A DNA stretch of 64,000 nucleotides from an uncultured Bacilli bacterium (GCA_944371905.1 CALVYA010000002.1:17303-81302), one strand, 5' to 3'. Positions 44,309-60,339 are shown, numbered from the stretch's first letter. The notes: generated by a model from the sequence alone, not told the origin. Numbers and translations: made by a program.

Positions 44309-45709
44309 TCATAATTTAGAAAAATTATAAATAATTTTGATTTGCTTATTTCTACTAATTGTAATTTTATTAATTAAAGAGAATAATAATTCTCTCGTTA
44401 TATAAATATTATCATAAACATTGTTGGTTGACAATTGATTCAGCTTTTTTAACTCTTGTTGTAATTCTTCTCGTTTTAATAAATAAGTTTCTACGTCAAT
44501 AATTTCATTAAGCCTATCTTCATATAAATACTTTAATTTTTTTTCTATTTTTTGTATATCTTGATTATTATTAATATTTCTTTGCTTTAATAATTGGTTA
44601 TTGATTATGAAAGATAAAAAGTTATTGATTCTATTCAAAACAAATTCTTCTAATTTTTGATAATTTATATAATGAGAAGTACAATTACTAGAATTATTTC
44701 GATAGGTATTGCAAGTCATAATATATTGTTTTCTTTTATTGGAATAACTAACCCCTAATAGACTACCACATTCCAAACAATAAACTAAACCTTCTAATAA
44801 TAACTTATTTCGAATAATATGATGTCCTTTTTTTCTTTTTCTAGATTGAATAATTTCAAATAATTCCTCACTAATGATTTTTTCTTGGGTATTATTTATT
44901 ACTACCCATTCTTGCTGATTCCTTTTTATTCTTGTTTTATTTTTATAACTAACATTTGTCCATACATTACTAACTAGGCATCCCGTGTATTCCTTATTAT
45001 TTAAAATATTATATATACTAGAAGCAGTCCATTTTTGATTGGTGGGAGATAAAATATTTTGATTATTTAATTTAATCGCAATCTCTTTATTACTTTTGCC
45101 ATGAAAAGATAAGGAAAAAATTTGTTTAACAATATTAGCTTTATCTTGATCAATAATTAATTTATTTTTATTATTAGGATCTTTTACATAGCCATATGGT
45201 GCTCTACTTCCCAAAAATAATCCTTGTTCTTTCTTAGTTTTCAAAATTGATTTTATTTTTTTAGAAGTATCTTTAGAAACCATATCATTAAACAACGCTT
45301 TAAAGGGTGCTATATCATTATTACCAGTATCATAATAAGTATCAATTCCATCTAAAATTGAAACATATCTAATTTTATTGGTCGGGAAATAATTTTCCAC
45401 ATAATACCCTGTTTTAATATAATCTCTTCCTAACCTAGATAGATCTTTAGTTATAACCATATTTATTTTATTATTTTTTATATCATGTAATAATTGATTA
45501 AAAGCAGGTCTATTAAAATTAGTTCCTGAATAACCATCATCTACATACTCTTTTATCGAACTTAAATTGTGCTCTTTTAGATATCGATAAATCAATTTCC
45601 TTTGATTTTTTATACTCTCACTTTCTTTATTTTTTTCTTTAAATAAATCCTCCTTAGATAACCTAATATAAACTCCTACTTTAAAATTACAATTATTCAT
45701 CATAATCAC
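44309..45709 (-). CDS. large serine recombinase 1
   Basis: N-terminal resolvase domain (VGVYIRLSKED...DDGYSGTNFNRPAF...ITKDLSRLGRD), a recombinase domain and a Cys-rich zinc-ribbon region plus coiled coil. The tracked start is a GTG and two ATGs follow within 4 codons. Confidence 0.9.
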   Translation of the reverse strand: MIMMNNCNFKVGVYIRLSKEDLFKEKNKESESIKNQRKLIYRYLKEHNLSSIKEYVDDGYSGTNFNRPAFNQLLHDIKNNKINMVITKDLSRLGRDYIKTGYYVENYFPTNKIRYVSILDGIDTYYDTGNNDIAPFKALFNDMVSKDTSKKIKSILKTKKEQGLFLGSRAPYGYVKDPNNKNKLIIDQDKANIVKQIFSLSFHGKSNKEIAIKLNNQNILSPTNQKWTASSIYNILNNKEYTGCLVSNVWTNVSYKNKTRIKRNQQEWVVINNTQEKIISEELFEIIQSRKRKKGHHIIRNKLLLEGLVYCLECGSLLGVSYSNKRKQYIMTCNTYRNNSSNCTSHYINYQKLEEFVLNRINNFLSFIINNQLLKQRNINNNQDIQKIEKKLKYLYEDRLNEIIDVETYLLKREELQQELKKLNQLSTNNVYDNIYITRELLFSLINKITISRNKQIKIIYNFSKL

Positions 45710-45785
45710 ATTCTTGCCAATAAGTTTTTAAAATCTCTATAATATCCATATTTCCATATTCTTCAATGATTATATAATCTTTCAT
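45693..45785 (-). CDS. 30-aa acidic mini-ORF upstream of recombinase 1 (candidate accessory or directionality factor)
   Basis: Hand translation: MKDYIIIEEYGNMDIIEILKTYWQECDYDE*. It overlaps the recombinase start. The same arrangement occurs in elements 2 and 3. Confidence 0.4.
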   Translation of the reverse strand: MKDYIIIEEYGNMDIIEILKTYWQECDYDE

Positions 45786-45817
45786 ATTATCAACTCAATA
45801 AAAAATATGCAAAAAAA

Positions 45818-45842
45818 ATATTATTAGAATTTCTAATAATAT
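45818..45842 (-). terminator. terminator between the cargo operon and the recombinase operon of element 1
   Basis: atattattagaa/ttctaataatat palindrome followed by T8 on the minus strand. Confidence 0.55.
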
Positions 45843-46720
45843 TAAGCTTCGTTTTTATTAAATTTATTTCGGAGCATAAAATAATAGATAATCTGAATAG
45901 TACCTATTAATAAAACCACTAAACCATAATTAACAAAAGTACCAAAAATATTTTCTTTTACCAACTGAATCGTTGCTGTTGAATATTCTTCTTCTAAAAT
46001 TAATTTCATAGCAACATTCCCTAATCCGCCAAGAGAGGCAAATACTCCACCAGCTAAAACTGTTGTTACTCCTGTCCAAATAGCAAAACGATAAATTGAC
46101 CATCTAACAATAGCTATGATAGCAATAACTATGATAATCATTACGAATAATACTATTTTAGAACTATCTCCAAGTAAAACGCGAATCACATTCATATCTT
46201 CTTCGTTTATTTCATTCTTCATCTCATCATATGTCGGGAACATATTAGATATTTCGGAAGAATTTTCTTCCACTTCTACTAAGATATTATCATGTTGTTC
46301 TTCCGTTAAAGTGATGCCTAATTCTTGAGCAGTTCGATCTAAAACTTCATCAACTGTTTGTACTATTTTATCAGCTGTAATAATTATTCCTTCTTGTCCA
46401 CTTGATAAATAATGAGCAACATCTCCATAATACTCACTAATTAATGCTTTAAATTCATTAGAATTAATAATTCCATCCACTATTTGGCGATCTATATTAT
46501 TATTATCAGCAATAGTATATAATCTATCCAAACTATCACTATCATTAGTGGTTAAAATTTCTTTCATATCCATATCATTAACAATTGTTGATACATTATC
46601 TTTGCTAATTAATTTAGGACCAATTAATAATCCAATATACATACATATCATTATAAATAATACAAAGCATAAAAATAAACTAACGATTTTTGATATTACA
46701 TCTAACCCTTTATTTTTCAT
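45842..46720 (-). CDS. hypothetical membrane protein (292 aa)
   Basis: One N-terminal TM helix, a soluble acidic domain and 3-4 C-terminal TM helices. It overlaps the upstream acyltransferase gene by 11 nt. Confidence 0.6.
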   Translation of the reverse strand: MKNKGLDVISKIVSLFLCFVLFIMICMYIGLLIGPKLISKDNVSTIVNDMDMKEILTTNDSDSLDRLYTIADNNNIDRQIVDGIINSNEFKALISEYYGDVAHYLSSGQEGIIITADKIVQTVDEVLDRTAQELGITLTEEQHDNILVEVEENSSEISNMFPTYDEMKNEINEEDMNVIRVLLGDSSKIVLFVMIIIVIAIIAIVRWSIYRFAIWTGVTTVLAGGVFASLGGLGNVAMKLILEEEYSTATIQLVKENIFGTFVNYGLVVLLIGTIQIIYYFMLRNKFNKNEA

Positions 46721-47324
46721 TTTGATTCTCCTTTTCTTTTCTATTATTAATAATTAATGTTTTGACCTTATCCATTAATTCATTATTAGCTTCTTCCAAA
46801 GAATTTGTTTTTATTTTATACGGTTTCCCAAAACAAATAGTAATTTGATTTTTCCTAAAAATTTTATATTTACCAGTAATAGAAAATGGCACTATAGTAC
46901 TATTGGTTTTTGAAGCCATAGATACTGCACCAAACTTAAATGGCATAATAACATCCTTCGTTCTATTGAATGTGCCTTCAGGAAAAATACCAATTAATTT
47001 TTGATCTTTTAATACTTTAATAGCTTTTTTCAAGGCTTCATGATCCTTTTGTCTCCTATTAACAGGAATGCAAGCCATGGCTTTAAAAAAAGGGGTTCCC
47101 AGACCTTTAAACAGTTCATCTTTTGCTAAAAAATGAATTGTTCTTTTTGTAGTACAAAACAATAAAGGAATATCCAAAATATTAGTATGATTTCCACAGA
47201 TTACAACAGAACCTTTTTTAGGAATATTTTCATTACCTATGATAGTAGGACGATACACAACTCTAAATAATCCATTGACAATTGGTCTTAAAATTCTATA
47301 TAGTATAGCATCTTTTTTTTCCAC
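46710..47324 (-). CDS. 1-acyl-sn-glycerol-3-phosphate acyltransferase family (PlsC-like)
   Basis: HX4D motif (NHTNILD) and FPEGT motif. Confidence 0.8.
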   Translation of the reverse strand: MEKKDAILYRILRPIVNGLFRVVYRPTIIGNENIPKKGSVVICGNHTNILDIPLLFCTTKRTIHFLAKDELFKGLGTPFFKAMACIPVNRRQKDHEALKKAIKVLKDQKLIGIFPEGTFNRTKDVIMPFKFGAVSMASKTNSTIVPFSITGKYKIFRKNQITICFGKPYKIKTNSLEEANNELMDKVKTLIINNRKEKENQNEK

Positions 47325-47380
47325 ATCTACACCTCTATTAATGATTACATTTATATTATAACACGTTATATTAATTATTT

Positions 47381-47399
47381 GCTATCTTTTTAAATTAGT
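47381..47399. repeat. right terminal inverted repeat of element 1
   Basis: gctatctttttaaattagt. See 44289-44307. Confidence 0.9.
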
Positions 47400-47405
47400 A
47401 GCAGG

Positions 47406-47627
47406 TGCTGATAAAGTAGCAGCAGCAATATTATCAGGTGATATGGATATTGCTTTCTGTGGTAGTGAAGCAACAATATATGTTTACAATGGTGGAGAAA
47501 AAGACTATTTAAAAACTTTTGCCCAATTAACACAAAAAGATGGAAGTTTTCTAGTTTCTAGAGAAAAAATTGACAATTTTACTTTAGATGATCTACGTGG
47601 TAAATATGTAATTGGAGGTCGTGCTGC
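47406..47627 (+). pseudogene. ABC substrate-binding protein gene, segment B (74 codons)
   Basis: ..ADKVAAAILSGDMDIAFCGSEATIYVYNGGEKDYLKTFAQLTQKDGSFLVSREKIDNFTLDDLRGKYVIGGRA. It is in frame with segment A once element 1 is removed. Confidence 0.85.
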
Positions 47628-47661
47628 CCTTCGGTTTTTATATGATAATTTTTTTAAGCAC

Positions 47662-49254
47662 TTAATCGGTGCTTAGCTCATTTATTAATAAATTAGGGTC
47701 TTTAATTTTATAATTTATTGTTATTTCTTTATTTTGTGTAATCATTATACTATCTATAATACAAGCAATTAAGTTTTTACTTGGTTTTCTTAATCTTAAA
47801 AATTCTTTAACTATACTTGTATAATCATTATTAGGCTTCATTTTGTTTTCTATTATCTCAAGTTGTGTTTCTAATTCTTTTAATTTTAATTGATTACTTA
47901 ATATATCGTTTATTATTTGATTATTAAAGTCTTTGTATTCTTCAAGTGTAATTACCTCATCTATTTTATCAAAGTAGATTTTATTTTTTCTTTTATTAAG
48001 TTTTTCTATTTCTAGATTACAAGAATTAATTTCTCCTTTTATTTTTTCTTTAACTTTGTTTCTTTTAGAAGCGTTTTTTAGTAGATTTTCAAAGTTAGTA
48101 CTATCCACATACTTCTTACACATTTCTCTTATTTCCCTTAATACTTCTTTTTCCAATTTTTGATAATTCATGGTATGAGGAGTACATACCTTAAACTTAC
48201 TATGCTTTTGATAATATGTACACCCTGTATATGCTCTATCTTCTGTTCTTTTTGATATTGAAATAGAGTGTCCGCATTCACTACAATATAAAAAGCCTCT
48301 TAACAAATAATTTGTTGAGTTATTTTGCTGATGTTTGTTCTTTTTATAGACTTGTTGTACTATATCAAACATTTCTTTATCTATTATAGGCTCATGTGTA
48401 TTTTCTATAACAATCCAACTAGATTTAGGAGTTCTTATTTCTTTTTTTATCTTATAATTAATAGTTTTTCTTCTTCCTTGACATAGATTTCCTATATATG
48501 TAGGATTACATAACATTTCATCTATTGTTCTTGAACACCACAAACCATAAGAAGAAGATTTAACACCACGATTTAAATTAGCATATACACTAGGTATTGG
48601 AATACCCTCTTTAGATAAAGTATCTGCTATCACTTTACAACTCATACCATCATAAGCCATTTTAAATATTCTTCTAACTATTGGCGCTACTTCTTCATCT
48701 ATAACTAATTTATATCTATCATTTTCATCTAGTTTATAACCATATACTGCTTTCCAACCAAGAAACTTGCCTTCTTCTTTTTTACTTCTTAAACTTCTTC
48801 GTACTTTTTTTGAAGTGTCTTTTGCATATTGGTCATTAAAAACTGCTTTAAATGGTGCTATATCATTACTGACACTATCTAGGTATGTATCTATATCATC
48901 TAATATGGCAATATATCTTACATTATGTTGTGGAAAGTATTTTTCCATATATTCCCCAGCTTTGATGTAATCTCTACCAAGTCTAGAATAGTCTTTTGTG
49001 ATAACACAATTTATTTTTCCACTTTCTATATCTCTTATCATTCTATTAAAAGAAGGTCTATCGAATGTAGTTCCACTTACACCATCATCTACATATTCAT
49101 CATATATTTTAAAGTTTTCTTTTTGCTTGTTAATGTAATCTAGTATTATATTTCTTTGATTCGAGATACTTTCACTCTCTATTTTATTTTTATCTTCATC
49201 TTCTCTTGATAAACGAATATAAGAACCAACATTATATATTTTATCTTGTTCCAT
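47662..49254 (-). CDS. large serine recombinase 2 (paralog of recombinase 1)
   Basis: VGSYIRLSREDEDK...DDGVSGTTFDRPSF...ITKDYSRLGRDYIKAG. The start was chosen at MEQDK after a ggagg RBS. It is collinear with recombinase 1. Confidence 0.9.
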   Translation of the reverse strand: MEQDKIYNVGSYIRLSREDEDKNKIESESISNQRNIILDYINKQKENFKIYDEYVDDGVSGTTFDRPSFNRMIRDIESGKINCVITKDYSRLGRDYIKAGEYMEKYFPQHNVRYIAILDDIDTYLDSVSNDIAPFKAVFNDQYAKDTSKKVRRSLRSKKEEGKFLGWKAVYGYKLDENDRYKLVIDEEVAPIVRRIFKMAYDGMSCKVIADTLSKEGIPIPSVYANLNRGVKSSSYGLWCSRTIDEMLCNPTYIGNLCQGRRKTINYKIKKEIRTPKSSWIVIENTHEPIIDKEMFDIVQQVYKKNKHQQNNSTNYLLRGFLYCSECGHSISISKRTEDRAYTGCTYYQKHSKFKVCTPHTMNYQKLEKEVLREIREMCKKYVDSTNFENLLKNASKRNKVKEKIKGEINSCNLEIEKLNKRKNKIYFDKIDEVITLEEYKDFNNQIINDILSNQLKLKELETQLEIIENKMKPNNDYTSIVKEFLRLRKPSKNLIACIIDSIMITQNKEITINYKIKDPNLLINELSTD

Positions 49255-49324
49255 TTTACCTCCAATCCAAAGTAAAATATATATGTTTATTAACACATAT
49301 ATTATACCATTTTTATCCTTATTT

Positions 49325-49441
49325 TTAAAGGCTTTGTGATATTTCTAACTCATAAAATTCGTAGTAATATTCGAGTAAAAATTTTTCTATTATTTCTTGT
49401 AAATCTTTACCATCTTTATTAAAAGTACTTGTTATTTTCAT
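49325..49441 (-). CDS. 38-aa mini-ORF upstream of recombinase 2
   Basis: Hand translation: MKITSTFNKDGKDLQEIIEKFLLEYYYEFYELEISQSL*. It is co-directional and acidic. The EIIEKFLLEY stretch loosely resembles DIIEILKTYW of mini-ORF 1. Confidence 0.4.
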   Translation of the reverse strand: MKITSTFNKDGKDLQEIIEKFLLEYYYEFYELEISQSL

Positions 49442-49737
49442 AAATTCACCTATTTAAACTTATGCCGACATAAATTGTTTTATTAAATCCTTTCTTTGCT
49501 TAAGCAACTTTAGAATACCAATAATCAAAAAATCTTTCTTTTACAAAAAACAAAATAAAGTGTTATATTTTTACAAAATTAAAACCTTTATTTTATAAGG
49601 GCTAAAGGTACTTTTACAACCGATTTTTCGAGTAGAAAGTCAGTTTTTAGACATATTTTAATATTAAAAAAACTTTGTTAAGATGAAATCACAAGAGCAA
49701 GGAACCAACTCTTGAAAATATGAAAGGAGAATAAAAG

Positions 49738-49965
49738 ATGGTAGTAGATGATTATAAAATTAAGTTAGAAATCATAAAACTTTCTATTATGAAACACACA
49801 GGAAGAGAAATCAGCGAAGAACTATTGAATAAGTTTTGTAAATATTTAACTATGGAATATGAAAATAATTCATCTAAAAATAGTATTGATAATCGTATCA
49901 ATAGTATTTGTAGAACTATTACTATAAAATACGATAAATATATGAGAATTATCAATGCTAACTAA
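49738..49965 (+). CDS. hypothetical protein (75 aa)
   Basis: Good RBS (gaaaggag). No motif recognised. Confidence 0.5.
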   Translation: MVVDDYKIKLEIIKLSIMKHTGREISEELLNKFCKYLTMEYENNSSKNSIDNRINSICRTITIKYDKYMRIINAN

Positions 49966-50056
49966 TTTAAGTTTATTTAAACCCAAATAAACTTAATTAA
50001 ACTTATAAATAAGTCATTTAGGATAAATGCTTATTGCTTTGTATTATATTTCCTTA

Positions 50057-50082
50057 AAAGTGATAAAAAATATCACTTTTTT
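50057..50082 (+). terminator. rho-independent terminator
   Basis: aaaagtgata/tatcactttt stem followed by a T-run. Confidence 0.6.
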
Positions 50083-50145
50083 CGTTTTAGGGGCAGACAA
50101 GAGGTTCCAACAAACTATATAATACATAGCCAAGGAGATGAAATT

Positions 50146-51300
50146 ATGGGAAAAAAACATAGAACTTTAAATGATACTATCTTTAGAAATAGTAAATATA
50201 TAGAGGTGGTAAATAAACAAGTCGGTTGTGATGACTTTAAAAAAGAGTGCCAAAATCCTAATTCTCAATATAAGGGTCAATATGATTTTATGTTGGAAAC
50301 TTTTAAAACTCTTATTTCACTTTATAATTGTTTTTATAGTGATAGCAACTTATCATTTCTTGAAAAAGTAGAAAATGCTATAAATATTATGGAAGAATAC
50401 ATTTATAAAGATTACGAAGTTGATAAGAAAAAATATAGTGTTAGATTTATTCAAAGTGTGAGTGATAAATATAGCACATATCTATATAGAAAAATAAGTA
50501 ATGATGAAACAGGTTGGTATGTTATATTAGATGATATAGATTCTAAAGAAATAAATACCTCTCCCATAGCTAAAAATGTTATAAAAGAAATTGAAGAAGA
50601 AATGACAAAACTTGAAAATATAGGCTTTGATGATATGGTCAAAGGCTCTATTGCTTATAAAAAAAATAAAGATAGTGATTACAAAATCTATATAAGTAAG
50701 TTTGACAGTTTAAATACAAAGCAAGAACAATTTATAGAGGAATTTAGTACTAAATACAACGAAAGCCATATAACTCCCTTAAATGATAATGAACTGACTA
50801 ATATAGCCTTAATTTATAACCTTGTAGCAAAAGTTAATAATGGCATAGTAAAAGTTCTTTCAAACAAACCAAATAAAAACTATAACTTAAATGAAAGGTC
50901 AACCCCTAGCAACTATTACAAGGCTTATCTTGATAGTTTAAATATTAGTATTGATGATAGTTTCTTTACACTTAATGCTAATGCTTTTATGATGAATGTA
51001 ATTATCACTTATTCTAATTCTTGCGGAGCAAAAGGCTTATCTCTAAATGATATGATAAATAATTTTGATATGTATTACTTTCTTGATAAAATAGAAAATT
51101 CCGTAGTCAAAAAAAATCTTTCAGTTAGTGATGAAAGAATACAAAAAATAATTTTAGACTTGAAACAAATTTATAACATTATTACAACAAAAAATAATGG
51201 ACTTGATGAATTATTTAATAATTTTAAAAGAGCCAATGAAATAATACTAAATATTATGAGCCGAGATAATAACTTAAATTATTATATAAGAGTTAGTTAG
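50146..51300 (+). CDS. hypothetical protein (384 aa), unknown-function cargo
   Basis: RBS aaggag. No Walker, nuclease, HEPN or other motif is visible. It is translationally close (8 nt) to the next gene. Confidence 0.6.
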   Translation: MGKKHRTLNDTIFRNSKYIEVVNKQVGCDDFKKECQNPNSQYKGQYDFMLETFKTLISLYNCFYSDSNLSFLEKVENAINIMEEYIYKDYEVDKKKYSVRFIQSVSDKYSTYLYRKISNDETGWYVILDDIDSKEINTSPIAKNVIKEIEEEMTKLENIGFDDMVKGSIAYKKNKDSDYKIYISKFDSLNTKQEQFIEEFSTKYNESHITPLNDNELTNIALIYNLVAKVNNGIVKVLSNKPNKNYNLNERSTPSNYYKAYLDSLNISIDDSFFTLNANAFMMNVIITYSNSCGAKGLSLNDMINNFDMYYFLDKIENSVVKKNLSVSDERIQKIILDLKQIYNIITTKNNGLDELFNNFKRANEIILNIMSRDNNLNYYIRVS

Positions 51301-51308
51301 GAGAAAAA

Positions 51309-52073
51309 ATGAATAAATTTAATGTTATGAAAATATTAGAAAAACAACAAAAAGAAAAAGAATTATTACATAAAGATTTAGAAAAAGAAGAATATTTGAA
51401 AAAAGTTTATAGTTTCATAGATGATTATGTTAAGCCACTACTTGAGAAAACAACTAATAATATAACCTATGGCTTTACTGACGATTTTGATACATTTATC
51501 TTATCAAAGAAAGTTGAAGATTTGCTTATTTATACGATAAAAATATTAGACTTAATTGGGAATAATATGTTCAAAGATATAGAGGAACCCCAACTTTTGC
51601 AAAATGCTTTGCTTAATGAAGAAATAGGTTTTTTAAACAAAGATAAAAAAATAAAGAAACAAGTAGCAACAAAATTATGTGGTTATATAACAAAAAGATT
51701 ATCTTATGAAGATAACTTGAATAATTATGTTGATGAATATATAAAACCTATGTTTATTAAGTTAGGCAAAGAAAATAAAATTGTTTTCGATTTAAACTCT
51801 AAAGATGAGAATAAATTGCTTATCTCTAATAACACAATAGAGTTATCAAAATTAGGTGTTTGTGAGAATACTATTATAAGTTTAGTTTTTCCTTTTACAA
51901 AAAATAATTATGATGAGAACACATTAAGGCATTTAGACTTTCTTTTTAATAATGATACAGAAATAAAACAAGAGTTTGCCGATTATTTAGTTAATACTTT
52001 TGTAGAAAGATATAACGAGATAGATTTTATCAATGTAAAAAAATTTAACCTTATAAACATATTAAAAGAGTGA
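51309..52073 (+). CDS. hypothetical protein (254 aa), unknown-function cargo
   Basis: RBS aggag. No motif recognised. It forms an operon with 50146..51300. Confidence 0.6.
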   Translation: MNKFNVMKILEKQQKEKELLHKDLEKEEYLKKVYSFIDDYVKPLLEKTTNNITYGFTDDFDTFILSKKVEDLLIYTIKILDLIGNNMFKDIEEPQLLQNALLNEEIGFLNKDKKIKKQVATKLCGYITKRLSYEDNLNNYVDEYIKPMFIKLGKENKIVFDLNSKDENKLLISNNTIELSKLGVCENTIISLVFPFTKNNYDENTLRHLDFLFNNDTEIKQEFADYLVNTFVERYNEIDFINVKKFNLINILKE

Positions 52074-52100
52074 TAAAAGATTTTATTCTTTATCACTCTT
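52066..52100. terminator. bidirectional terminator shared by convergent genes
   Basis: 12-bp stem aagagtgataaa/tttatcactctt overlapping both stop codons. Confidence 0.65.
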
Positions 52101-52415: not shown

Positions 52416-52424
52416 TGGTATAAT
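52416..52424 (+). promoter_or_regulatory. extended -10 promoter element, divergent from the XRE gene
   Basis: TGGTATAAT, with a weak -35 (ttactc) about 17 nt upstream. It points into a 470-nt ORF-free AT-rich tract. Confidence 0.45.
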
Positions 52425-52891
52425 AGTTTATAAGAAAGGAGTTTATAATTCTTAAAAGAAAAGAAGTTTGATGTGTTTATATGGAATAATATTATTAAAG
52501 GTTTATGACCGTGAAAATAATTATTAAAGTGAAATAGTATAAAATAATTATGAGTAAGAAGATATAAGTTATAATACTCGACATTCAACTATTGATTTCA
52601 CTTACAATATGGATATAGAAAATAATTAAGTTGATTTTTACTTAATAATGATACTTACAAATTAAAATATGATAAAAAAATAAATGTTTAATTGATGAAA
52701 AATAAAATATTATATGTAATTATTTATAGATAAACTATGATAGCTTTGATAAAATTAATTAATATTGTGTTATAATTAATATGTAATGCATTTTTTTATT
52801 TTATTTTTATATAGCAATAAGTTAATTTGATTAAAAGTATGCTTGTACAGGTATTTTTAATATAGATGTATAGAAGTGAAAGGAGGTTTTT

Positions 52892-53245
52892 ATGGAAACA
52901 AAATTTTGTGAAAATTGTGGTAATAAAGTTGCTATCGATGCAGTGATATGTCCAAAATGTGGCAGACAACTTGAAGAACTTAAAACAGAAGAAAATAAAT
53001 CAAATGCTTCGCAAGTAATTATTAACAATTCAAACATTGTTGATGGAGGATATAAAAAAAAACAATGTGATAAATGGATAACTTTATTATTATGTATATT
53101 TTTAGGAATATTTGGTGGTCATAAATTTTATGAAGGTAAAATTGGATTAGGTATTTTATATATTTTTACTTTTGGACTTTTTGGAATAGGTATATTAGTA
53201 GATTTTATAGTAATTTTATTTAGACCTAATCTTTATTATGTATAA
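52892..53245 (+). CDS. zinc-ribbon plus TM2-domain membrane protein
   Basis: FCENCGN..CPKCG followed by ...LLLCIFLGIFGGHKFYEGKIGLGILYIFT.. (TM2 domain pattern). Confidence 0.75.
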   Translation: METKFCENCGNKVAIDAVICPKCGRQLEELKTEENKSNASQVIINNSNIVDGGYKKKQCDKWITLLLCIFLGIFGGHKFYEGKIGLGILYIFTFGLFGIGILVDFIVILFRPNLYYV

Positions 53246-53259
53246 TAGGAGGAAATAAG

Positions 53260-54111
53260 ATGGAAGAAAAAAAGTTTTGTAAATTTTGTGGTGAGAAGAT
53301 TGATAAAGATAGTATTGTATGTCCAAAATGTGGCAGACAACTAAAACTTGTAAAAAATGAAATTAATGAAAAAAAGATAAATAATACACAAGAAAATGAA
53401 ATAAAATTTTATCAGCAACAGTGGTTTATGTGGATTATGTTAGTGTTTTTTGCACCAGTTGGAATATTTCTTATGTGGAAATTCAATGATAAAATGAAGA
53501 AAAATATTAAAATAATACTAACAGTAATATTTTCTATTTTCTTTATAATAGTAATATCAAGTAGTAGTTCTAATGATGTTAATGAGAACGGAACAAAATA
53601 TGAAACTAATAAAAAAATAACTGTTGAAATAGTAGATTTCAGTAATATGACAACTGCCGAAGTTGATAATTGGTGCAGTGAAAAAAAAGTTAATTGCAAA
53701 AGAGTTGAAGAATATAATGACACTATTGAAAAAGGTAAATTTGTAAGTCAAAGTATTGAAAGTTCAAAAACAATTTATGAAGGAGAACAAATAACAATAG
53801 TTTATTCGCTTGGAAAGGAACCAACAGTTAGCCAAAAAAATGCAGTAAAAAAAGCTGAATCATATTTAGATTATTCTGCTTTTTCAAGAAATGGTCTAAT
53901 TAAACAATTAGAATTTGAAGGTTTCTCAAATGCTGATGCAACATATGCTGTTGATAATATAATTGTTGATTGGAATGAACAAGCAGTGAAAAAAGCTAAA
54001 TCATATCTAGATTATTCTGCTTTTTCAAGAAATGGTTTAATTAAACAATTAGAGTTTGAAGGTTTTACTTACGAACAAGCAGTATATGGCGTTGAACAAA
54101 ACGGATTATAA
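53260..54111 (+). CDS. zinc-ribbon/TM/PASTA-like protein with two Ltp-type repeats (superinfection-exclusion-like)
   Basis: FCKFCGE..CPKCG, one TM helix, a PASTA-like segment (ITVEIVDFSNMTTAEVDNWC...GEQITIVYSLG), then two copies of AVKKA.SYLDYSAFSRNGLIKQLEFEGF. Confidence 0.7.
   Translation: MEEKKFCKFCGEKIDKDSIVCPKCGRQLKLVKNEINEKKINNTQENEIKFYQQQWFMWIMLVFFAPVGIFLMWKFNDKMKKNIKIILTVIFSIFFIIVISSSSSNDVNENGTKYETNKKITVEIVDFSNMTTAEVDNWCSEKKVNCKRVEEYNDTIEKGKFVSQSIESSKTIYEGEQITIVYSLGKEPTVSQKNAVKKAESYLDYSAFSRNGLIKQLEFEGFSNADATYAVDNIIVDWNEQAVKKAKSYLDYSAFSRNGLIKQLEFEGFTYEQAVYGVEQNGL
53842..54066 (+). repeat. intragenic direct repeat (two 84-bp copies, period 141 bp)
   Basis: 53842-53925 and 53983-54066 differ at only about 6 positions. 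They encode the two Ltp-type repeats. Confidence 0.85.
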
Positions 54112-54182
54112 AATAAAAGAGTATATAATCAATTATATGCTTTGTTTTAATCTATTTACACAAAACTACACAAAATTAGAGA

Positions 54183-54237
54183 AAAGTCTTTGATAACCTA
54201 CTATATATATGAGGAGGTGTTACTATCAAAGACTTTT
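54183..54237 (+). terminator. 14-bp-stem hairpin plus T-run; terminator and/or translational control of the next ORF
   Basis: aaaagtctttgata (54183-96) pairs with tatcaaagactttt (54224-37). The 27-nt loop holds the gaggagg RBS. TTTTTT follows. Confidence 0.5.
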
Positions 54238-54395
54238 TTACTTTAAAAGATGCTTGTAAGATTATAAATATATCTTATAAAACACTTTATAGTTGGGTTA
54301 AAAATAATGAAGTATCTTACACTAAAATTGGTAATAGATATTATATGACACAAGAGCAAATCAATGCTCTTGTTTTTGTTTATAACAAATCATAG
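54225..54395 (+). CDS. excisionase-type (HTH_17/MerR-like) DNA-binding protein, apparent non-canonical ATC start
   Basis: Hand translation: IKDFFTLKDACKIINISYKTLYSWVKNNEVSYTKIGNRYYMTQEQINALVFVYNKS*. A GGAGG lies 7 nt upstream. There is no ATG, GTG or TTG in frame after the preceding stop. Confidence 0.5.
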   Translation: MKDFFTLKDACKIINISYKTLYSWVKNNEVSYTKIGNRYYMTQEQINALVFVYNKS

Positions 54396-54476
54396 TTTTG
54401 TATTGCTTAAAAACTTAACACAAGCCACGATATAATATTAAAATCAAATTGTAAAAATTAAATAAGGAGGAAAAAA

Positions 54477-55274
54477 ATGTATAGCATATATCAAAATAGA
54501 TATGCCAATAAATTACACTTAAATATTATAAAAGTTAAATATTCAAAGGAACATACCTTACTTGAAAGAGATTTTAGCATTAAATTAAGTGATGATTACA
54601 ACGATTTAGCAAACGACTTAATAACATACAAATTATATCTTTATTTAGGTAGTTTACTAAGTCAAAATGCTTTAAGAAATGAAATACTAACACTTGATAC
54701 AAAAGCCTTTCTAAATGCCTTAAAAACAACTAAAAAGGCTTATATTATATCATCGCTTGAATATTTAAAAGCCATAAGGTTTAAATACTACTATTTTAAA
54801 GGTAAGAAGAACAACAAAGGCTATATCAAAGAAATAAGAAATTGTAGTATTATTGATGATTATTCTTCTTCAAAAGGTAGTATAACAATTAGATTTAATA
54901 AAGATTATTTAACCTTACTTGGTTATAGTAGATTAACCTTACAACTACCTAACGAGCTATTTACTATGAATATAACAAAATATCATCATAGTTTATTTAT
55001 GGGAGTTCGTATCTTATTACATAGACAAGTGAATTTTAATAAGAAACAAAGAAATGTTATATCAGTAAAAGAAATAACAAAATATTGTCCTTTACTCCCT
55101 TGTTATGATGATTTAAACGAAAGTAAGCAAGTATCAAGAAATATATTAGAGCCATTTAAAAAAAATATGGACTTTATGTGGGAAATACTTAATTTTACTT
55201 GGAAGTATGAAAATGAGCTAACTACATATAACTCATTTATAAATAATAAAATAATCTTTGAGTGTAGAAATTAG
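54477..55274 (+). CDS. putative replication initiator (Rep-like, winged-helix)
   Basis: The call rests on its position directly upstream of a DnaB-C-like ATPase and an AT-rich palindromic region, plus general resemblance to RepB/Rep_3-type proteins. It is weak. Confidence 0.35.
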   Translation: MYSIYQNRYANKLHLNIIKVKYSKEHTLLERDFSIKLSDDYNDLANDLITYKLYLYLGSLLSQNALRNEILTLDTKAFLNALKTTKKAYIISSLEYLKAIRFKYYYFKGKKNNKGYIKEIRNCSIIDDYSSSKGSITIRFNKDYLTLLGYSRLTLQLPNELFTMNITKYHHSLFMGVRILLHRQVNFNKKQRNVISVKEITKYCPLLPCYDDLNESKQVSRNILEPFKKNMDFMWEILNFTWKYENELTTYNSFINNKIIFECRN

Positions 55275-55390
55275 AGCAAAGTTTAGCAGATTTTGAGTTT
55301 TGATATGTAGATGACATTTGTTAGAAACACTTATAAATCAATACTTTTTGAGATGTTTATTTCCTTAAATATAATAAGTATATTATATAT

Positions 55391-55417
55391 AGCACTCACT
55401 CTTTAAAGAGTGGTGCT
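55391..55417. promoter_or_regulatory. 27-nt palindrome followed by a (TA)n tract: candidate origin or terminator
   Basis: agcactcactcttt/aaagagtggtgct, then tatatatatata. It lies in the 265-bp gap between the Rep-like and helicase-like genes. Confidence 0.35.
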
Positions 55418-55540
55418 TATATATATATAACTTAATTTTTACAATAAAAAAAAACTATAAAACTCATATAGAGTATATTATATTCTACTTATAATAGTAA
55501 GAACAATATATGTATATAAAAATTTTAGAAGGAGAAAAAA

Positions 55541-56368
55541 ATGCTGACTATAGATGAATATAAAAACTATATAACTAATGAAAACAATGTAAGAAAAATA
55601 CCAACTAACTTTAGCAAATTAGATAATATATATGGTGGAGGTTTATCAAAAGGACTAACCATTATTGGTGCTAACACTGGCTTAGGCAAAACAACTTTTG
55701 TCTTACAACTTGCTGATAATGTAGCACAACAACCTAACACAAAAGTTTTATTCTTTTCTATGGAATTAACTAAATATGAGTTGGTGTCAAAGTCTTTAAG
55801 CCGATTATCTTATTTAGATAACAACTTAACTAATCATACACCTAATGATTTTATAAGTAATGGTGTTGATGATTTGGATACTTATTATAGTCATTATGAG
55901 CCAATGGGAAATAATGTTTATATAGTTGATAATATTAGAAGTATTATGAAAATATCTAAAACTATTTACGACTTTTGTAATGAGTTTGAAAATGACAAAG
56001 TTGTTGTTATTATTGATTACATACAATTTATAAATTGTAATGGAAGCAACGATAAGCAAAATGTTGATATAATCACACGAGAACTTAAAGCACTTGCCAA
56101 TAATTACAATATACCTATTGTGGCAATTAGTAGTTTAAGTCGTGAGGGTGCTAAAAGAAATGATATATCATCATTTAAGGAAAGTGGTTCAATAGAATAT
56201 ACCGCTGATTATTTAATTATTATGTATCAAAAGCAAAATAATAGAGAGTTGGCTTTTACTGATGATACTGATACTATAACAGTTCAGTTTCTAAAAAATA
56301 GATTTGGAGTAAAAGGACAATTTGATTTAAAGTATATTGGAAATTATGCAACATTTAAGGAACTTTAA
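55541..56368 (+). CDS. DnaB-helicase C-terminal-domain-like (RecA-fold) ATPase
   Basis: Walker A GANTGLGKTT, Walker B VVVIIDYIQ, ...ISSLSREG... Confidence 0.75.
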   Translation: MLTIDEYKNYITNENNVRKIPTNFSKLDNIYGGGLSKGLTIIGANTGLGKTTFVLQLADNVAQQPNTKVLFFSMELTKYELVSKSLSRLSYLDNNLTNHTPNDFISNGVDDLDTYYSHYEPMGNNVYIVDNIRSIMKISKTIYDFCNEFENDKVVVIIDYIQFINCNGSNDKQNVDIITRELKALANNYNIPIVAISSLSREGAKRNDISSFKESGSIEYTADYLIIMYQKQNNRELAFTDDTDTITVQFLKNRFGVKGQFDLKYIGNYATFKEL

Positions 56369-56385
56369 CGAGTTCCTTTTATTTT
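56357..56385 (+). terminator. terminator overlapping the ATPase stop
   Basis: aaggaact/agttcctt stem followed by ttatttt. Confidence 0.5.
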
Positions 56386-56491
56386 GGGAAAATATTTTAG
56401 TCGTTTAATTTTAGGGCAACCCATTGATATAAAAAAAGTAGTAGAAAAAGTTATTTAACTTAGCCCCTACTACAAGGAGGAATAAAAAATT

Positions 56492-56677
56492 ATGAAACAA
56501 AGATTTTTAACACTTGTAGAGGTATGTGATAGCCTACATACTTCTATTGGGTATATAAAGAAACTAATTGATGAGGGAAAAATTAAGGCTATTAAATCAT
56601 CAAAAAATTACTTAATTAGTGAGTTTGAATATTTAAAACTAATTGAGTTTATGGAGGTACAGCATAATGAAAAATAA
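56492..56677 (+). CDS. excisionase-family HTH protein
   Basis: FLTLVEVCDSLHTSIGYIKKLIDEGKIKAIK. Confidence 0.6.
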   Translation: MKQRFLTLVEVCDSLHTSIGYIKKLIDEGKIKAIKSSKNYLISEFEYLKLIEFMEVQHNEK

Positions 56678-56975
56678 TAAAATAAGTATAGATTTAGATA
56701 TTGAGGACTTATTAGGTATTAAGGAAACAAGCAAAGATAGTTTAGAATATGATTTAGAGTTTATAATCAATAATGGTTATGATGAATATATCAAGCAACA
56801 AGAAGAACACAACAAAAAGAAACAAGAATTTATAGAACTATTTAAAGAGTGTTATGATGAGTTATGCATTTTTATGGAAAAAGACCCTAAACAAAGAGTT
56901 GCTATATCTTGCTTTACTTGTATCAAAGGTATGGACTTATCTAAACAATATGGTAAGCCAAAAAAAGATAAGTAG
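56667..56975 (+). CDS. hypothetical protein (102 aa)
   Basis: The start was chosen at MKNNKISIDL after a ggagg RBS. No motif recognised. Confidence 0.5.
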   Translation: MKNNKISIDLDIEDLLGIKETSKDSLEYDLEFIINNGYDEYIKQQEEHNKKKQEFIELFKECYDELCIFMEKDPKQRVAISCFTCIKGMDLSKQYGKPKKDK

Positions 56976-57005
56976 TTAAATGATAACTTGCTTATCTTTC
57001 TTTTT

Positions 57006-57254
57006 TTATTGTTTCATTATTTCATTATAGAGTATTATTTGTTTCTTATTGTTCTTTTGAAACTCCCTTCTAAAATCTTTTTGTAATTTTTCAAAATGAT
57101 TATATAAAAGTCCTCTTTCTTTATCAGTAAACTTACTATCTTCTTTTAGGCTTTCTTCTAACATTTGATGAACTACTAGCATTTCTATCATTGTATTATT
57201 CATTTTTTCAGTTAAGTTAAATCTTAACTCATTTATATTTGTACACTTTTTCAT
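57006..57254 (-). CDS. hypothetical coiled-coil protein (82 aa)
   Basis: The internal ATG (MKKCTNINELRF) has an agagg RBS. The longer tracked ORF runs into the element end and is unlikely. Confidence 0.45.
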   Translation of the reverse strand: MKKCTNINELRFNLTEKMNNTMIEMLVVHQMLEESLKEDSKFTDKERGLLYNHFEKLQKDFRREFQKNNKKQIILYNEIMKQ

Positions 57255-57411
57255 TTTATACCTCTTTCTTATAATTAGATTTGTTAATAAACACATAATT
57301 TTACCCTTATTGTACCTTGATTTTTTATATTTGTTATCACTATTAACCCAAAGGGGGGGTCGGTGTATCGGTAGTAACATTTTTTTAGTTATCACTTTTG
57401 ATGAGAAAAGC

Positions 57412-58546: not shown

Positions 58547-58595
58547 ATATATACCTCCTATGTACTATATGCAATTAAACAAACAATGATATTAT

Positions 58596-60185
58596 TTAGC
58601 TATAAAAATAATACTTAACAGAAAAATGAACATTACCATTTCTTTGATTAAAGAGATAATTCTTTTGTAAAAATAATGTTAACTGATTTCTGGAAGAATT
58701 TTTTGAGAATGATAAATAAATCGTTAACTGAATATTTTTTTTATCATGATTTTGCTTGGCAACTACAATTTTTTCTAATAAGTTTTGAATAATGTAATCT
58801 CTTACTTTTTCTTGATTTAATTTAGTAAAGATGATGTCTTTTAAATTACTTTCTATTTCATATTTATTAGAATAACTCAAAGAAGTTTGTGTTTGACTTA
58901 TCTTAGGATGATATTCTACATCTTTCTTTAATAACAACTTCCTTTTTTGGTCTTTCAAACTTTTCACTTTACATAGTGATTTTTTAAATTTATTATAATT
59001 AGCAAATAAGATATCAAATACTTCTTTAGTATTTATATGCATTTGTAATAGTAAATCATTAAAAATAAAATTTAAATTTTTTTCTTTAATTATAGGAGAA
59101 TCACAACTTTTTTTACCATTTTTCAAATATTCAGAACAAATCCATACAACTTCATTATGATTTAACTTTCTTCTATGAAAAACACAATTATGATAACAGC
59201 AATATATCTTAGCACTATAATTGTATCTTAAATGATATATTGTTTTTTCACTTTTTCTTTTTCTAAAAGCCTGCTTTCTAATTAGTAGTCTTTGATTAGC
59301 GAGTTCCCATATTTTTTCACTAATAATTGGTGGAATTTTTTTGGTATCTTTATAAATAATCCACTTATCTTTTTCAATATTCTTTACTTTTTTAGTCATA
59401 TAATCTACTATTTCTGTTCTATTAGCACAATAGTAACCTTTATACTTTGGATTAGAAATCATTCTAGATAAAGTAGTAACACTCCAATTATTTTGAGTAG
59501 AAGTCCTAATATTTTGATTATTTAAAATCTTAACAATCTGTGATAAGGATCTTTTGTCAACTATATACATTCGATAGATTTCTCTTATGATTTTAGCCTG
59601 TCTTTCTATGATTTTTAAATTACCGGTATCTTTATCTTTTTTATATCCATATAAAAGGTCATTACCTAAAATTTCTCCTCTTCTAATAGCTCTTTTCATT
59701 CCAAATTTCACTCTTTCCGATAAACGTCTTATCTCATCTTGCGCCATAGAAGCCATAATAGTTAATCGTAATTCAGAATCCGGCAATGCTGTATTAATAT
59801 TATCATTAACAAATAGAACTGCTACTCCATCGTTCAAAAGTTCTCTTGTGTATTTGATGCTATCTAAAGTATTTCTTGAAAATCTGGAAATCTCCTTAGT
59901 AACAATTAGATCGAATTTATGACGTTTAGCATCCTCGATCATTTGCATAAAGTTTTCTCTTTTTATATCACTTGTACCACTAATACCATCATCTATATAT
60001 CCATCAATATACGTCCAATTACTATTTTGTTTTATAAATTGCTCAAAATATTCCTGTTGATTTTTTAAAGATTTTTGTTGTTCTAAATGATCAGTAGAAA
60101 CTCTCGAGTAGTAAGTAACTCGCAAATTAATGTTAGTAATAGGAATTCCCATATTTAATTGATTCCTAACATAATATAAGTCCAA
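58596..60185 (-). CDS. large serine recombinase 3 (a different subfamily from 1 and 2)
   Basis: VTYYSRVSTD...DDGISGTS..R..F..M....KFDLIVTKEISRFSRNT, plus a recombinase domain and a Cys-rich region. The start is ambiguous (TTG at 60185 or ATG at 60152). Confidence 0.88.
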   Translation of the reverse strand: MDLYYVRNQLNMGIPITNINLRVTYYSRVSTDHLEQQKSLKNQQEYFEQFIKQNSNWTYIDGYIDDGISGTSDIKRENFMQMIEDAKRHKFDLIVTKEISRFSRNTLDSIKYTRELLNDGVAVLFVNDNINTALPDSELRLTIMASMAQDEIRRLSERVKFGMKRAIRRGEILGNDLLYGYKKDKDTGNLKIIERQAKIIREIYRMYIVDKRSLSQIVKILNNQNIRTSTQNNWSVTTLSRMISNPKYKGYYCANRTEIVDYMTKKVKNIEKDKWIIYKDTKKIPPIISEKIWELANQRLLIRKQAFRKRKSEKTIYHLRYNYSAKIYCCYHNCVFHRRKLNHNEVVWICSEYLKNGKKSCDSPIIKEKNLNFIFNDLLLQMHINTKEVFDILFANYNKFKKSLCKVKSLKDQKRKLLLKKDVEYHPKISQTQTSLSYSNKYEIESNLKDIIFTKLNQEKVRDYIIQNLLEKIVVAKQNHDKKNIQLTIYLSFSKNSSRNQLTLFLQKNYLFNQRNGNVHFSVKYYFYS

Positions 60186-60186
60186 A

Positions 60187-60339
60187 TTAATTACCTTCTT
60201 TGCTATATGTTAATTTATATAATTGTTTTAAAATATTTTCCTCTGTGCTTCTAAATATTTTATATGTAATTAAATCATCATCAAATAATTCTTTATTAAT
60301 AGAAAGAGCTAATTCCAAAATTAATTTATTATAATTCAT
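60187..60339 (-). CDS. 50-aa mini-ORF upstream of recombinase 3
   Basis: Hand translation: MNYNKLILELALSINKELFDDDLITYKIFRSTEENILKQLYKLTYSKEGN*. Its stop abuts the recombinase start. Confidence 0.4.
   Translation of the reverse strand: MNYNKLILELALSINKELFDDDLITYKIFRSTEENILKQLYKLTYSKEGN

What the first reader, a model, noticed from the sequence alone, without database searches (positions are those of the whole stretch)
45693..60339. Every recombinase is preceded by a tiny co-directional acidic ORF: candidate directionality or accessory factors
Three ORFs below the track cut-off lie immediately 5' of, and abut or overlap, each recombinase start on the same strand: 45693-45785 (30 aa), 49325-49441 (38 aa) and 60187-60339 (50 aa). 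The arrangement recurs in three otherwise different elements, which argues against chance. Mini-ORFs 1 and 2 share a loose (D/E)IIE.(L/F)L..Y(W/Y) stretch, matching the relatedness of recombinases 1 and 2. Large serine recombinases need a recombination directionality factor for excision. Known RDFs are small and highly diverse, so these are plausible but unproven candidates. Element 2 additionally has two Xis-like HTH genes.
Basis: partly seen in the sequence, partly recalled or inferred. Interest (0 to 1): 0.6.

Follow-up and report, generated by a model that had tools for sequence, protein, structure and literature searches.

The report
Conserved mini-genes upstream of serine recombinases
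Each of the three large serine recombinase genes here is preceded by a real, conserved 30-50-residue gene, most likely a small partner protein that controls whether its mobile element cuts itself out, much like the known skr-spoIVCA pair of Bacillus subtilis.

Summary
All three mini-ORFs exist at the stated coordinates, on the recombinase strand.

They are genuine genes and fall into two unrelated families.
- Family A (mini1, mini2) lies upstream of 72 of 95 related recombinase loci.
- Family B (mini3) lies upstream of 77 of 83 loci of the third recombinase clade.
- There is no cross-occurrence between the two.
- Close pairs show purifying selection only in the annotated frame (pN/pS 0.30-0.34 for A, 0.11-0.21 for B; other frames 0.8-3.7).

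The mini-genes lie inside the mobile elements, between recombinase and cargo. They either overlap the recombinase start or are separated from it by a spacer. That spacer carries a strongly enriched extended -10 promoter.

No Pfam, NCBIfam, PHROG or PDB sequence family matches either one.

The arrangement copies a proven case: skr, a 64-residue directionality factor that sits immediately upstream of, and overlaps, spoIVCA.

My best reading (about 0.45) is that these are cognate directionality factors. This is unproven. In the recombinase-1 clade the recombinase has no ribosome-binding site of its own and depends on translational coupling, which fits a constant accessory subunit better.

- Mini2 sits 70 nt upstream of the true start and does not abut it.
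- Mini3 is not acidic.
- The mini1-mini2 relationship rests on position and motif, not on statistics.

The parts
45693..45785 (-). mini1, 30 aa, acidic. A divergent member of small-protein family A. Its last codons (GAT GAA TAA) overlap the rec1 start (ATGAATAA).
   Evidence: The same 8-nt overlap and a C-terminal ..E* occur in the minis of rec1 relatives L018 and L020. The leave-one-out HMM does not detect it.
44309..45700 (-). rec1, a large serine recombinase of about 463 aa. It has no Shine-Dalgarno sequence of its own, and its 3' end abuts the end of element 1.
49325..49441 (-). mini2, 38 aa, acidic. The founding member of family A here. It has its own AGGTGA Shine-Dalgarno sequence.
   Evidence: P0147 differs by one residue and is seen on 17 contigs.
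49277..49329 (-). Spacer promoter for rec2: TTTAAA-17-TGG TATAAT (49329-49301), followed by the palindrome ATATATGTGTTAATAAACATATAT (49300-49277).
   Evidence: TGnTATAAT occurs in 17 of 23 unique family A spacers, against 0.35 expected.
47662..49254 (-). rec2, a large serine recombinase of 530 aa (ATG 49254, GGAGG SD at 49263-49259). Its 3' end abuts the NMT1 fragment.
60187..60339 (-). mini3, 50 aa, near neutral. A member of family B, predicted to be a helical hairpin. The rec3 SD (GAAGG) lies in its last codons.
58596..60185 (-). rec3, a large serine recombinase of 529 aa, with the conserved start TTG GAT TTA TAT.
44289..47404 (.). Element 1 (about 3.1 kb): rec1, mini1, a 292-aa ORF and an acyltransferase. 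It is inserted in the host NMT1-type binding-protein gene. Its ends carry the direct repeat TTAGTAsCAGGTGCT and inverted arms.
47626..57355 (.). Element 2 (about 9.7 kb; the right end is approximate): rec2, mini2 and divergent cargo. It is inserted about 73 codons further into the same NMT1 gene.
56492..56677 (+). 61-aa HTH_17-like (Xis/AlpA-type) gene in element 2. It is a rival candidate for excision control.
   Evidence: E 9.5e-5, 23 bits, below the gathering score of 27.

Best explanation
The three mini-ORFs are real genes for small proteins of two unrelated families. Family A comprises mini1 and mini2 and is modelled as an extended N-terminal segment plus one amphipathic helix. Family B comprises mini3 and is modelled as a two-helix hairpin.

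Each family is tied to its own clade of large serine recombinases (LSRs). Together, mini-gene and recombinase form a two-gene recombination module at the recombinase end of integrative elements.

The most likely function is that each mini-protein binds its cognate recombinase and acts as its recombination directionality factor. The layout matches skr-spoIVCA of the B. subtilis skin element and xis-int of phage lambda.
- Transcription from the regulated promoter upstream of the mini-gene yields mini-protein plus recombinase, giving excision.
- The conserved extended -10 promoter in the spacer yields recombinase alone, giving integration after transfer.

Shown here:
- The ORFs exist.
- They are under purifying selection.
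- They are strictly syntenic and clade-specific.
- They lie inside the elements.
- The spacer promoter motif is strongly enriched.
- Identical elements sit in different host backgrounds at the same target gene.

Inferred, not shown:
- Protein-protein binding.
- Any effect on direction.
- Activity of the promoters.
For: Conservation and specificity
- Family A is found upstream of 72 of 95 rec1/rec2-like loci and 0 of 83 rec3-like loci. Family B is found upstream of 77 of 83 rec3-like loci and 0 of 95 of the others.
- pN/pS for close pairs is 0.30-0.34 (A) and 0.11-0.21 (B) in frame, against 0.8-3.7 in the shifted frames. Variation is enriched at the third codon position.
- Gene callers independently called 31-39-aa genes upstream of rec2 homologues of 67-84% identity.
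- All 13 places examined for two widespread family A proteins have an LSR 41-78 nt downstream.

Position and mobility
- The minis lie inside the elements. The host NMT1 gene is split at the 3' ends of rec1 and rec2.
- The same rec2-type recombinase (P0010) sits at NMT1 with different flanking genes.

Expression layout
- TGnTATAAT occurs in 17 of 23 unique family A spacers (0.35 expected) and 8 of 27 family B spacers (0.10 expected).

Literature
- skr is a 64-aa RDF found as an unannotated ORF immediately upstream of and overlapping spoIVCA (PMC6957869).
- SprB is 58 aa and its C-terminal helix is essential, while its N-terminal helix is dispensable (PMC11722253).
- Most RDFs add a beta strand and a segment that contacts the base of the coiled coil (PMC12286644).
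- CD1234 is a 72-aa acidic RDF (PMC5025042).

Structure models
- mini3: pLDDT 92.6, helical hairpin.
- mini2: extended N-terminus plus helix 14-37, pLDDT 76.
Against: - No binding or recombination data exist.
- In the rec1 clade (the window, L018, L020) the recombinase has no SD. It overlaps the mini-gene by 8 nt, so recombinase could hardly be made without the mini-protein. A classical RDF made in at least equal amounts would block integration; SprB inhibits integration at ratios of 2:1 and above.
- Overall, 40 of 72 family A loci and 31 of 77 family B loci have a gap of 15 nt or less, or an overlap.
- Some related recombinases lack any mini-gene (L032, L074, L091).
- There is no significant similarity to SprB or to any known family.
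- Some LSRs of transposon or SCCmec type need no RDF (PMC12286644).
- Element 2 also carries an HTH_17-like gene that could be the excision factor.
- At 26-38 aa, family A members would be smaller than any RDF named in the papers read here (SprB 58 aa, Skr 64 aa, CD1234 72 aa).
Confidence: 0.45

Rival explanations
1. The mini-proteins are constant accessory subunits of the recombinase: a chaperone, a stabiliser or a stoichiometric inhibitor. They are made together with it by translational coupling. They are needed for, or dampen, recombination in both directions and do not set direction.
For: - An 8-nt overlap with no recombinase SD is seen in the rec1 clade.
- There is a 1-nt gap with the SD inside the mini-gene for rec3.
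- About half of all loci are overlap or short-gap type.
- Small acidic upstream overlapping genes resemble the antitoxin-toxin layout (my own knowledge).
- The mini2 model is not a self-contained fold, which suggests folding on a partner.
- There is a weak profile match of family A to YmoB/TomB, a modulator of a small partner protein (E 0.008).
Against: - The enriched promoter between mini-gene and recombinase in spacer-type loci implies that recombinase is also made alone. That is unnecessary for an obligate subunit.
- Related recombinases without a mini-gene exist.
- The YmoB match is borderline.
Confidence: 0.25
2. The mini-ORFs are chiefly translational leaders (uORFs). Their translation sets how much recombinase is made, and the peptide itself has no role in trans.
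For: - Overlap and coupling geometry.
- The conserved weak TTG start of the rec3 clade.
- Recombinase expression is usually kept very low (my own knowledge).
Against: - There is purifying selection on the amino-acid sequence, with conserved amphipathic patterns across 40-60% divergent members.
- The mini3 fold is confident (pLDDT 92.6).
- Spacer-type loci give the recombinase its own promoter and SD, so no leader is needed.
Confidence: 0.08
3. The mini-proteins are small DNA-binding regulators of the module. For example, they might bind the palindrome at the recombinase promoter. In element 2 the real excision factor would then be the HTH_17-like protein.
For: - Subfamily-specific palindromes or hairpins lie just after the spacer -10.
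- Many family B members have basic N-terminal tails.
- An HTH_17-like gene is present in element 2.
Against: - Family A is strongly acidic, with no DNA-binding motif.
- No HTH or other DNA-binding family matches either family.
- Elements 1 and 3 show no HTH_17 gene in the parts seen here.
- The HTH_17 match is below Pfam's threshold.
Confidence: 0.1
4. The ORFs are chance open frames or remnants of the disrupted target gene.
For: They are short ORFs in AT-rich DNA. Each alone has a 4-7% chance expectation.
Against: - Conservation and frame-specific selection are seen in about 150 loci.
- The NMT1 target fragments lie at the other (3') side of the recombinases.
- The minis match nothing in NMT1.
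Confidence: 0.02

Closest known systems
skr-spoIVCA of the Bacillus subtilis skin element (Suzuki et al. 2020, PMC6957869)
   Same: - A previously unannotated small ORF lies immediately upstream of a large serine recombinase gene, on the same strand.
- It overlaps the recombinase start in a different frame.
- It is inside an element that interrupts a host gene.
- It is shown experimentally to be the RDF.
   Different: - Skr is 64 aa and overlaps spoIVCA by 101 nt. Here the proteins are 30-50 aa, with an overlap of 8 nt, a gap of 1 nt or a gap of 70 nt.
- Sequence relatedness could not be tested, because the Skr sequence is only in a figure.
- skr is sporulation-controlled. The hosts here are uncultured gut Bacilli/Mollicutes-like MAGs.
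SprB-SprA of phage SPbeta (PMC5499854, PMC11722253)
   Same: - A small (58 aa) non-DNA-binding partner of an LSR.
- The LSR's 3' end abuts the element end, as here.
- The essential part is a C-terminal amphipathic helix preceded by a strand region. The family A model has the same overall layout.
- The integrase is constitutive and the RDF is regulated.
   Different: - sprB lies at the opposite end of the prophage, not upstream of sprA.
- There is no significant profile similarity to family A or B.
CD1234-CD1231 of the Clostridioides difficile skin element (PMC5025042)
   Same: A small acidic (72 aa, pI 5.5) orphan protein, encoded in the element, that binds the LSR and triggers excision.
   Different: It is not adjacent to or co-directional with the recombinase, it has its own sporulation promoter, and it is larger.
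xis-int of phage lambda and of Tn916-type elements (tyrosine recombinases; my own knowledge)
   Same: A small gene directly upstream of, and overlapping, the integrase gene. A second promoter gives integrase alone.
   Different: The recombinase family and mechanism differ. Xis proteins are basic DNA-bending proteins, whereas family A is acidic.
Pfam DUF6870 small proteins
   Same: They occupy the same position upstream of more distant LSRs fetched here (L002-L004, L007, L093). Function is unknown.
   Different: They are 75-90 aa. The profile comparison with family A is not significant (P 0.014, probability 3%). mini1-3 do not hit the Pfam model.

Membership tests
Recombination directionality factor of a large serine recombinase (a functional class) | Encoded by the same mobile element as its recombinase | tested here: met
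   The NMT1 target fragments flank the 3' ends of rec1 and rec2, so the minis lie between recombinase and cargo. The mini3-rec3 pair is linked to conserved cargo in about 30 loci.
Recombination directionality factor of a large serine recombinase (a functional class) | Binds the cognate recombinase, at the junction of the second DNA-binding domain (DBD2) and the coiled coil | not testable with these tools
   No multimer prediction was available.
Recombination directionality factor of a large serine recombinase (a functional class) | Stimulates attL x attR and inhibits attP x attB recombination | not testable with these tools
   This needs an experiment.
Recombination directionality factor of a large serine recombinase (a functional class) | Expression separable from that of the recombinase | tested here: inconclusive
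   Spacer-type loci carry a strongly enriched TGnTATAAT between the two genes. About half the loci overlap or nearly abut, and the rec1 clade has no SD of its own.
Recombination directionality factor of a large serine recombinase (a functional class) | Sequence similarity to a known RDF (not required, since RDFs are diverse) | tested here: not met
   hhalign against SprB gives probability below 1%. PDB chain profile searches return no RDF.
skr-type tandem rdf-int unit | Small ORF immediately 5' of the LSR gene, on the same strand, abutting or overlapping it | tested here: met
   mini1 has an 8-nt overlap, mini3 a 1-nt gap and mini2 a 70-nt gap. The family-wide gaps range from -20 to +125 nt.
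skr-type tandem rdf-int unit | Homology to Skr | not tested
Pfam DUF6870 (PF21757) | Match to the family model above threshold | tested here: not met
   There is no hit for mini1-3. 4 of the 27 sequences in A1 matched. Three sequences (L002, L007, L093) had been included as DUF6870-like by eye. The matching members are not listed, and the fourth was not among ten family A members re-scanned. hhalign gives P 0.014.
Pfam TnpW (recalled from memory as a small protein of Tn4451-type LSR transposons) | Match to the family model | tested here: not met
   TnpW was not among the families listed for mini1-3 or the ten re-scanned family A members at E up to 10, nor among the families listed for A1 and A2.
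SHOCT domain (PF20612 SHOCT_2) | Match to the family model | tested here: not met
   Only 2 of 40 family B members match, with best E 0.041.
Excisionase / HTH_17 (Xis, AlpA type) | Winged-helix or HTH DNA-binding fold | tested here: not met
   mini1-3 have no HTH family hit. The models are a helical hairpin and a single helix.

The most novel reading that the evidence does not exclude
Peptides of 26-50 residues, always encoded immediately upstream of the recombinase, are sufficient to reverse the direction of large serine recombinases in two whole clades from gut Bacilli.

These would be the smallest directionality factors known. They would also be the first clades in which the factor can be read off by synteny alone, yielding hundreds of ready-made orthogonal integrase-RDF pairs.

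A variant of this reading: in the overlap-type clade the peptide is an obligate co-translated subunit, a kind of two-chain serine recombinase not described before.
Probability: 0.3. Interest if true: 0.65.

Novelty: new member of a known kind. Interest (0 to 1): 0.5.

Why it matters
Large serine integrases are widely used genome-engineering tools. Reversing them requires the cognate directionality factor.

According to the 2025 virtual-pulldown study, these factors are hard to find because they lack sequence conservation and synteny with the integrase gene (PMC12286644).

If these two mini-protein families are such factors, three things would follow.
- The factor would be predictable by position in large clades of uncultured gut Bacilli elements.
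- Two new, very small factor families would be added. Family A has 320 clusters at E up to 10 in the 5.8-billion-protein collection. Family B has 23 clusters at 50% identity.
- The minimum size needed to redirect the coiled coil would be defined.

If they are instead constant subunits or inhibitors, that would be a new layer of control for this enzyme family.

Either way, the genes are currently unnamed, labelled only as hypothetical, or not called at all.

Tried and rejected
- **Viral contig scans** with all three recombinases gave only distant relatives (26-37% identity), so they were not useful for the conservation test.
- **The search for homologous proteins with mini3 alone** found a single near-identical protein.
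- **Pooled all-pairs pN/pS** was uninformative because synonymous sites were saturated. I replaced it with divergence-binned pairs.
- **Family libraries** gave no credible match for either family:
  - Pfam and NCBIfam.
  - PHROGs, where the best result was phrog_38548 (unknown function), matched by 5 members with best E 0.0029.
  - PDB chain sequences.
- **Foldseek of the mini3 model against PDB** gave only generic helical hairpins with E above 0.7. The coiled-coil hairpin of the Listeria innocua (LI) phage integrase is among them (5uae_B, E 5.5), which is not significant.
- **Homology of family A to DUF6870, to SprB or to family B** was rejected by hhalign. A by-eye resemblance of family A to the strand-plus-helix C-terminal part of SprB remains only a lead.
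- **Natural fusions of mini3 to a recombinase** were not seen among 23 representatives. One 1826-aa hit matches only query residues 18-37 and is probably spurious.
- **tblastn of a family B member** against annotated phages and plasmids found no match.
- **An empirical control** counting small ORFs upstream of all big ORFs in the window was contaminated by truncated real genes and was discarded.

Full report
**What is in the window**

The region is about 25% G+C. It carries three large serine recombinases (LSRs) on the minus strand, each with Resolvase, Recombinase and Zn_ribbon_recom domains.
- None reaches the cut-off of any named NCBIfam recombinase model.
- rec1 and rec2 are 40% identical. 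rec3 is about 25% identical to either.

Reading the junctions corrects the geometry.
- **rec2.** It starts at ATG 49254 behind a GGAGG. This form is identical to database protein P0001 (530 aa). mini2 therefore ends 70 nt upstream.
- **rec1.** It has two adjacent ATGs and no Shine-Dalgarno sequence (SD). The second ATG (45700) gives the overlap ATGAATAA with the mini1 stop. The relatives L018 and L020 show the same overlap.
- **rec3.** It starts at TTG 60185, one base after the mini3 stop, with its SD inside the last mini3 codons.

**Are the ORFs real genes?**

I collected homologous loci from three sources:
- rec2 homologues of 67-84% identity, through the protein collection;
- 80 loci from a metagenome scan with rec1;
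- 80 loci from a genome scan with rec3, nearly all uncultured Bacilli, Mollicutes or Tenericutes gut MAGs.

The results are consistent.
- In the rec2 homologues the public gene calls already include a 31-39-aa gene 70-90 nt upstream. Its peptide is clearly related, for example MNIVKSEYDENGKTLQEVIEQFLIEYYYEFYELKLIETL.
- I listed all small upstream ORFs and built seed HMMs. Family A (mini1, mini2) is found upstream of 72 of 95 rec1/rec2-like loci and none of 83 rec3-like loci. Family B (mini3) is found upstream of 77 of 83 rec3-like loci and none of the other 95.
- Several of the apparent family A misses carry weaker A-like peptides or a DUF6870 protein in the same position.
- Codon analysis of pairs below 25% nucleotide divergence gives pN/pS of 0.30-0.34 (A) and 0.11-0.21 (B) in the annotated frame. 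The two shifted frames give 0.8-3.7, and most variation is at third positions.

These are protein-coding genes under purifying selection.

mini1 needs a caveat. A family A HMM built without it does not detect it. Its assignment rests on three things: position, the I-I-E-x-Y ... G ... I-I-E-x-L-x-x-Y pattern, and the conserved ATGAATAA overlap shared with the minis of the nearest rec1 relatives.

**Context**

A host gene for an NMT1-type binding protein is broken into pieces at 44106-44288, 47395-47625 and from about 57398.
- Each break lies at the 3' end of a recombinase gene.
- Element 1 therefore spans about 44289-47404 and element 2 about 47626-57355.
- The mini-genes lie inside the elements, between recombinase and cargo. 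They are not target-gene remnants.
- rec2 homologues sit at the same NMT1 position next to PcrA in other genomes. One identical recombinase (P0010) is found with different flanking genes, which indicates recent integration events.
- mini3-rec3 is linked to a divergent DUF3801-like gene and an ABC ATPase gene in about 30 loci.

**Expression architecture**

Both families come in two layouts.
- About half of the loci overlap or have a gap of 15 nt or less: 40 of 72 for A and 31 of 77 for B.
- The rest have a spacer, and the spacer is not neutral. TGnTATAAT occurs in 17 of 23 unique family A spacers (0.35 expected from shuffles) and in 8 of 27 family B spacers (0.10 expected).
- In the window this promoter is TTTAAA-17-TGGTATAAT at 49329-49301, followed by a palindrome.
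- Many of these recombinases could therefore be transcribed either alone or together with the mini-gene.
- The rec3 clade keeps a TTG start.

**What the proteins look like**

- Neither family matches Pfam, NCBIfam, PHROGs or any PDB chain sequence at a credible level.
- The two families are unrelated to each other.
- Family A members number 320 clusters at E up to 10 in the 5.8-billion-protein collection. Among the 120 listed, lengths are 30-72 aa, and the few that carry a name are called hypothetical protein.
- Family B has 23 clusters at 50% identity with E up to 0.001. All but one are 42-86 aa; the exception is an 1826-aa hit that is probably spurious. None is fused to a recombinase.
- AlphaFold2 models mini3 as a confident two-helix hairpin (pLDDT 92.6). 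It models mini2 as an extended N-terminal segment followed by one long amphipathic helix (pLDDT 76).
- Foldseek gives only generic hairpin matches.

**What is known**

- The closest precedent is skr in the B. subtilis skin element. It is an unannotated 64-aa ORF immediately upstream of the LSR gene spoIVCA and overlaps it by 101 nt. It was shown to be the RDF (PMC6957869).
- SprB of SPbeta is 58 aa, does not bind DNA and binds SprA (PMC5499854). Its C-terminal helix is essential and its N-terminal helix is dispensable (PMC11722253).
- CD1234 of C. difficile is a 72-aa acidic RDF (PMC5025042).
- The 2025 virtual-pulldown study states that RDFs lack sequence conservation and synteny with the integrase gene. 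It reports that most add a strand to DBD2 and contact the base of the coiled coil. It also notes that some LSRs may have no RDF (PMC12286644).
- SprB shows no significant profile similarity to family A or B.

**Mechanism**

The best-supported reading is that these are cognate LSR-binding cofactors laid out like skr-spoIVCA or lambda xis-int.
- Regulated transcription from upstream of the mini-gene gives both proteins, and therefore excision.
- The spacer promoter gives recombinase alone, and therefore integration.

I put this at about 0.45, because nothing here tests binding or direction.

The overlap layout argues against a simple switch. In the rec1 clade the recombinase has no SD, which would make the mini-protein unavoidable whenever recombinase is made.

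The rivals are:
- a constant accessory subunit or inhibitor (0.25);
- a DNA-binding regulator, with the HTH_17-like gene as the true excision factor in element 2 (0.10);
- a purely translational leader (0.08);
- chance (0.02, effectively excluded).

**Novelty and interest**

A small RDF gene directly upstream of an LSR gene is a known concept (skr). I therefore file this as new members of a known kind, with function unproven.

The new content is fourfold:
- two unannotated protein families;
- their clade-wide synteny with LSRs in uncultured gut Bacilli;
- the recurring two-layout architecture with an enriched internal promoter;
- sizes down to 26-38 aa, below any RDF named in the papers read here.

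Interest is moderate (0.5). The result is practically useful for finding integrase-RDF pairs, and the claim is directly testable.

Noticed in passing
window 44064-44288, 47405-47625, 57398-~57560: One host gene for an NMT1-type substrate-binding protein is interrupted twice, at different codons, by two different LSR elements. Its C-terminal part seems truncated again before the SDR gene at 57626-58546.
   Followed up: partly
window 44270-44310 and 47380-47410: The ends of element 1 carry a 15-nt direct repeat TTAGTA(C/G)CAGGTGCT and inverted arms (CTAAAAAGATAGCA / TGCTATCTTTTTA). These are probably the attL and attR half-sites of rec1.
   Followed up: partly
window 57355-57400: About 45 nt at the far end of element 2 look like a direct, not inverted, copy of the recombinase-proximal end of an L008-type element. 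This may be the scar of a third, deleted tandem element. It remains unexplained.
   Followed up: no
window 49277-49300; loci L008, L011, L015, L021, L038, L092 spacers: Directly after the conserved spacer -10 there is a palindrome or hairpin. Its sequence differs between subfamilies but stays self-complementary, and in many loci it is followed by a GTTATAC motif. It could be an operator or a 5'-UTR stem-loop.
   Followed up: partly
loci L138, L142, L151, L173 (upstream of the rec3-like genes): Several family B genes have no ATG, GTG or TTG start. They do have an ATA or ATT at Shine-Dalgarno distance, which suggests non-canonical starts in these Mollicutes-like Bacilli. L137 carries a frameshifted copy next to an intact recombinase.
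   Followed up: partly
window 60185; rec3-like loci L098-L174: The rec3 clade keeps the start TTG GAT TTA TAT almost invariantly. A weak start codon is conserved across recombinases that are 50-60% identical.
   Followed up: no
window 49738-57000: Element 2 cargo includes:
- an Ltp-like lipoprotein with a PASTA domain (53260-54111);
- a TM2/zinc-ribbon protein (52892-53245);
- a DnaB_C-like helicase (55541-56368);
- a Cro/CI-type HTH_3 gene (52083-52340, minus strand);
- a weak HTH_17 gene (56492-56677).

This looks like a satellite or defective phage-like integrative element.
   Followed up: partly
loci L178-L182: In a Clostridiaceae MAG (1.8-Mb contig) a family A mini-gene plus LSR sits in a tiny module with HTH_3 and AbrB/MazE-like genes, between spo0A and a Mn-catalase (CotJC-like) gene.
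   Followed up: no
locus L191 (MT837325.1) 6149-6388: A rec3-like LSR (45% identity) in an unannotated 7.1-kb 'Bacteriophage sp.' record is preceded by a 79-aa ORF. Its motif LLNKNAIDDKTYRKLMGKI resembles the family B core, which suggests the family reaches further than the HMM counts show.
   Followed up: no
window 1-17925: The left part of the window looks like the ribosomal-protein (S10-spc-alpha) operon region on the minus strand, judged from ORF sizes only. If so, the islands lie in a chromosome, not a plasmid.
   Followed up: no
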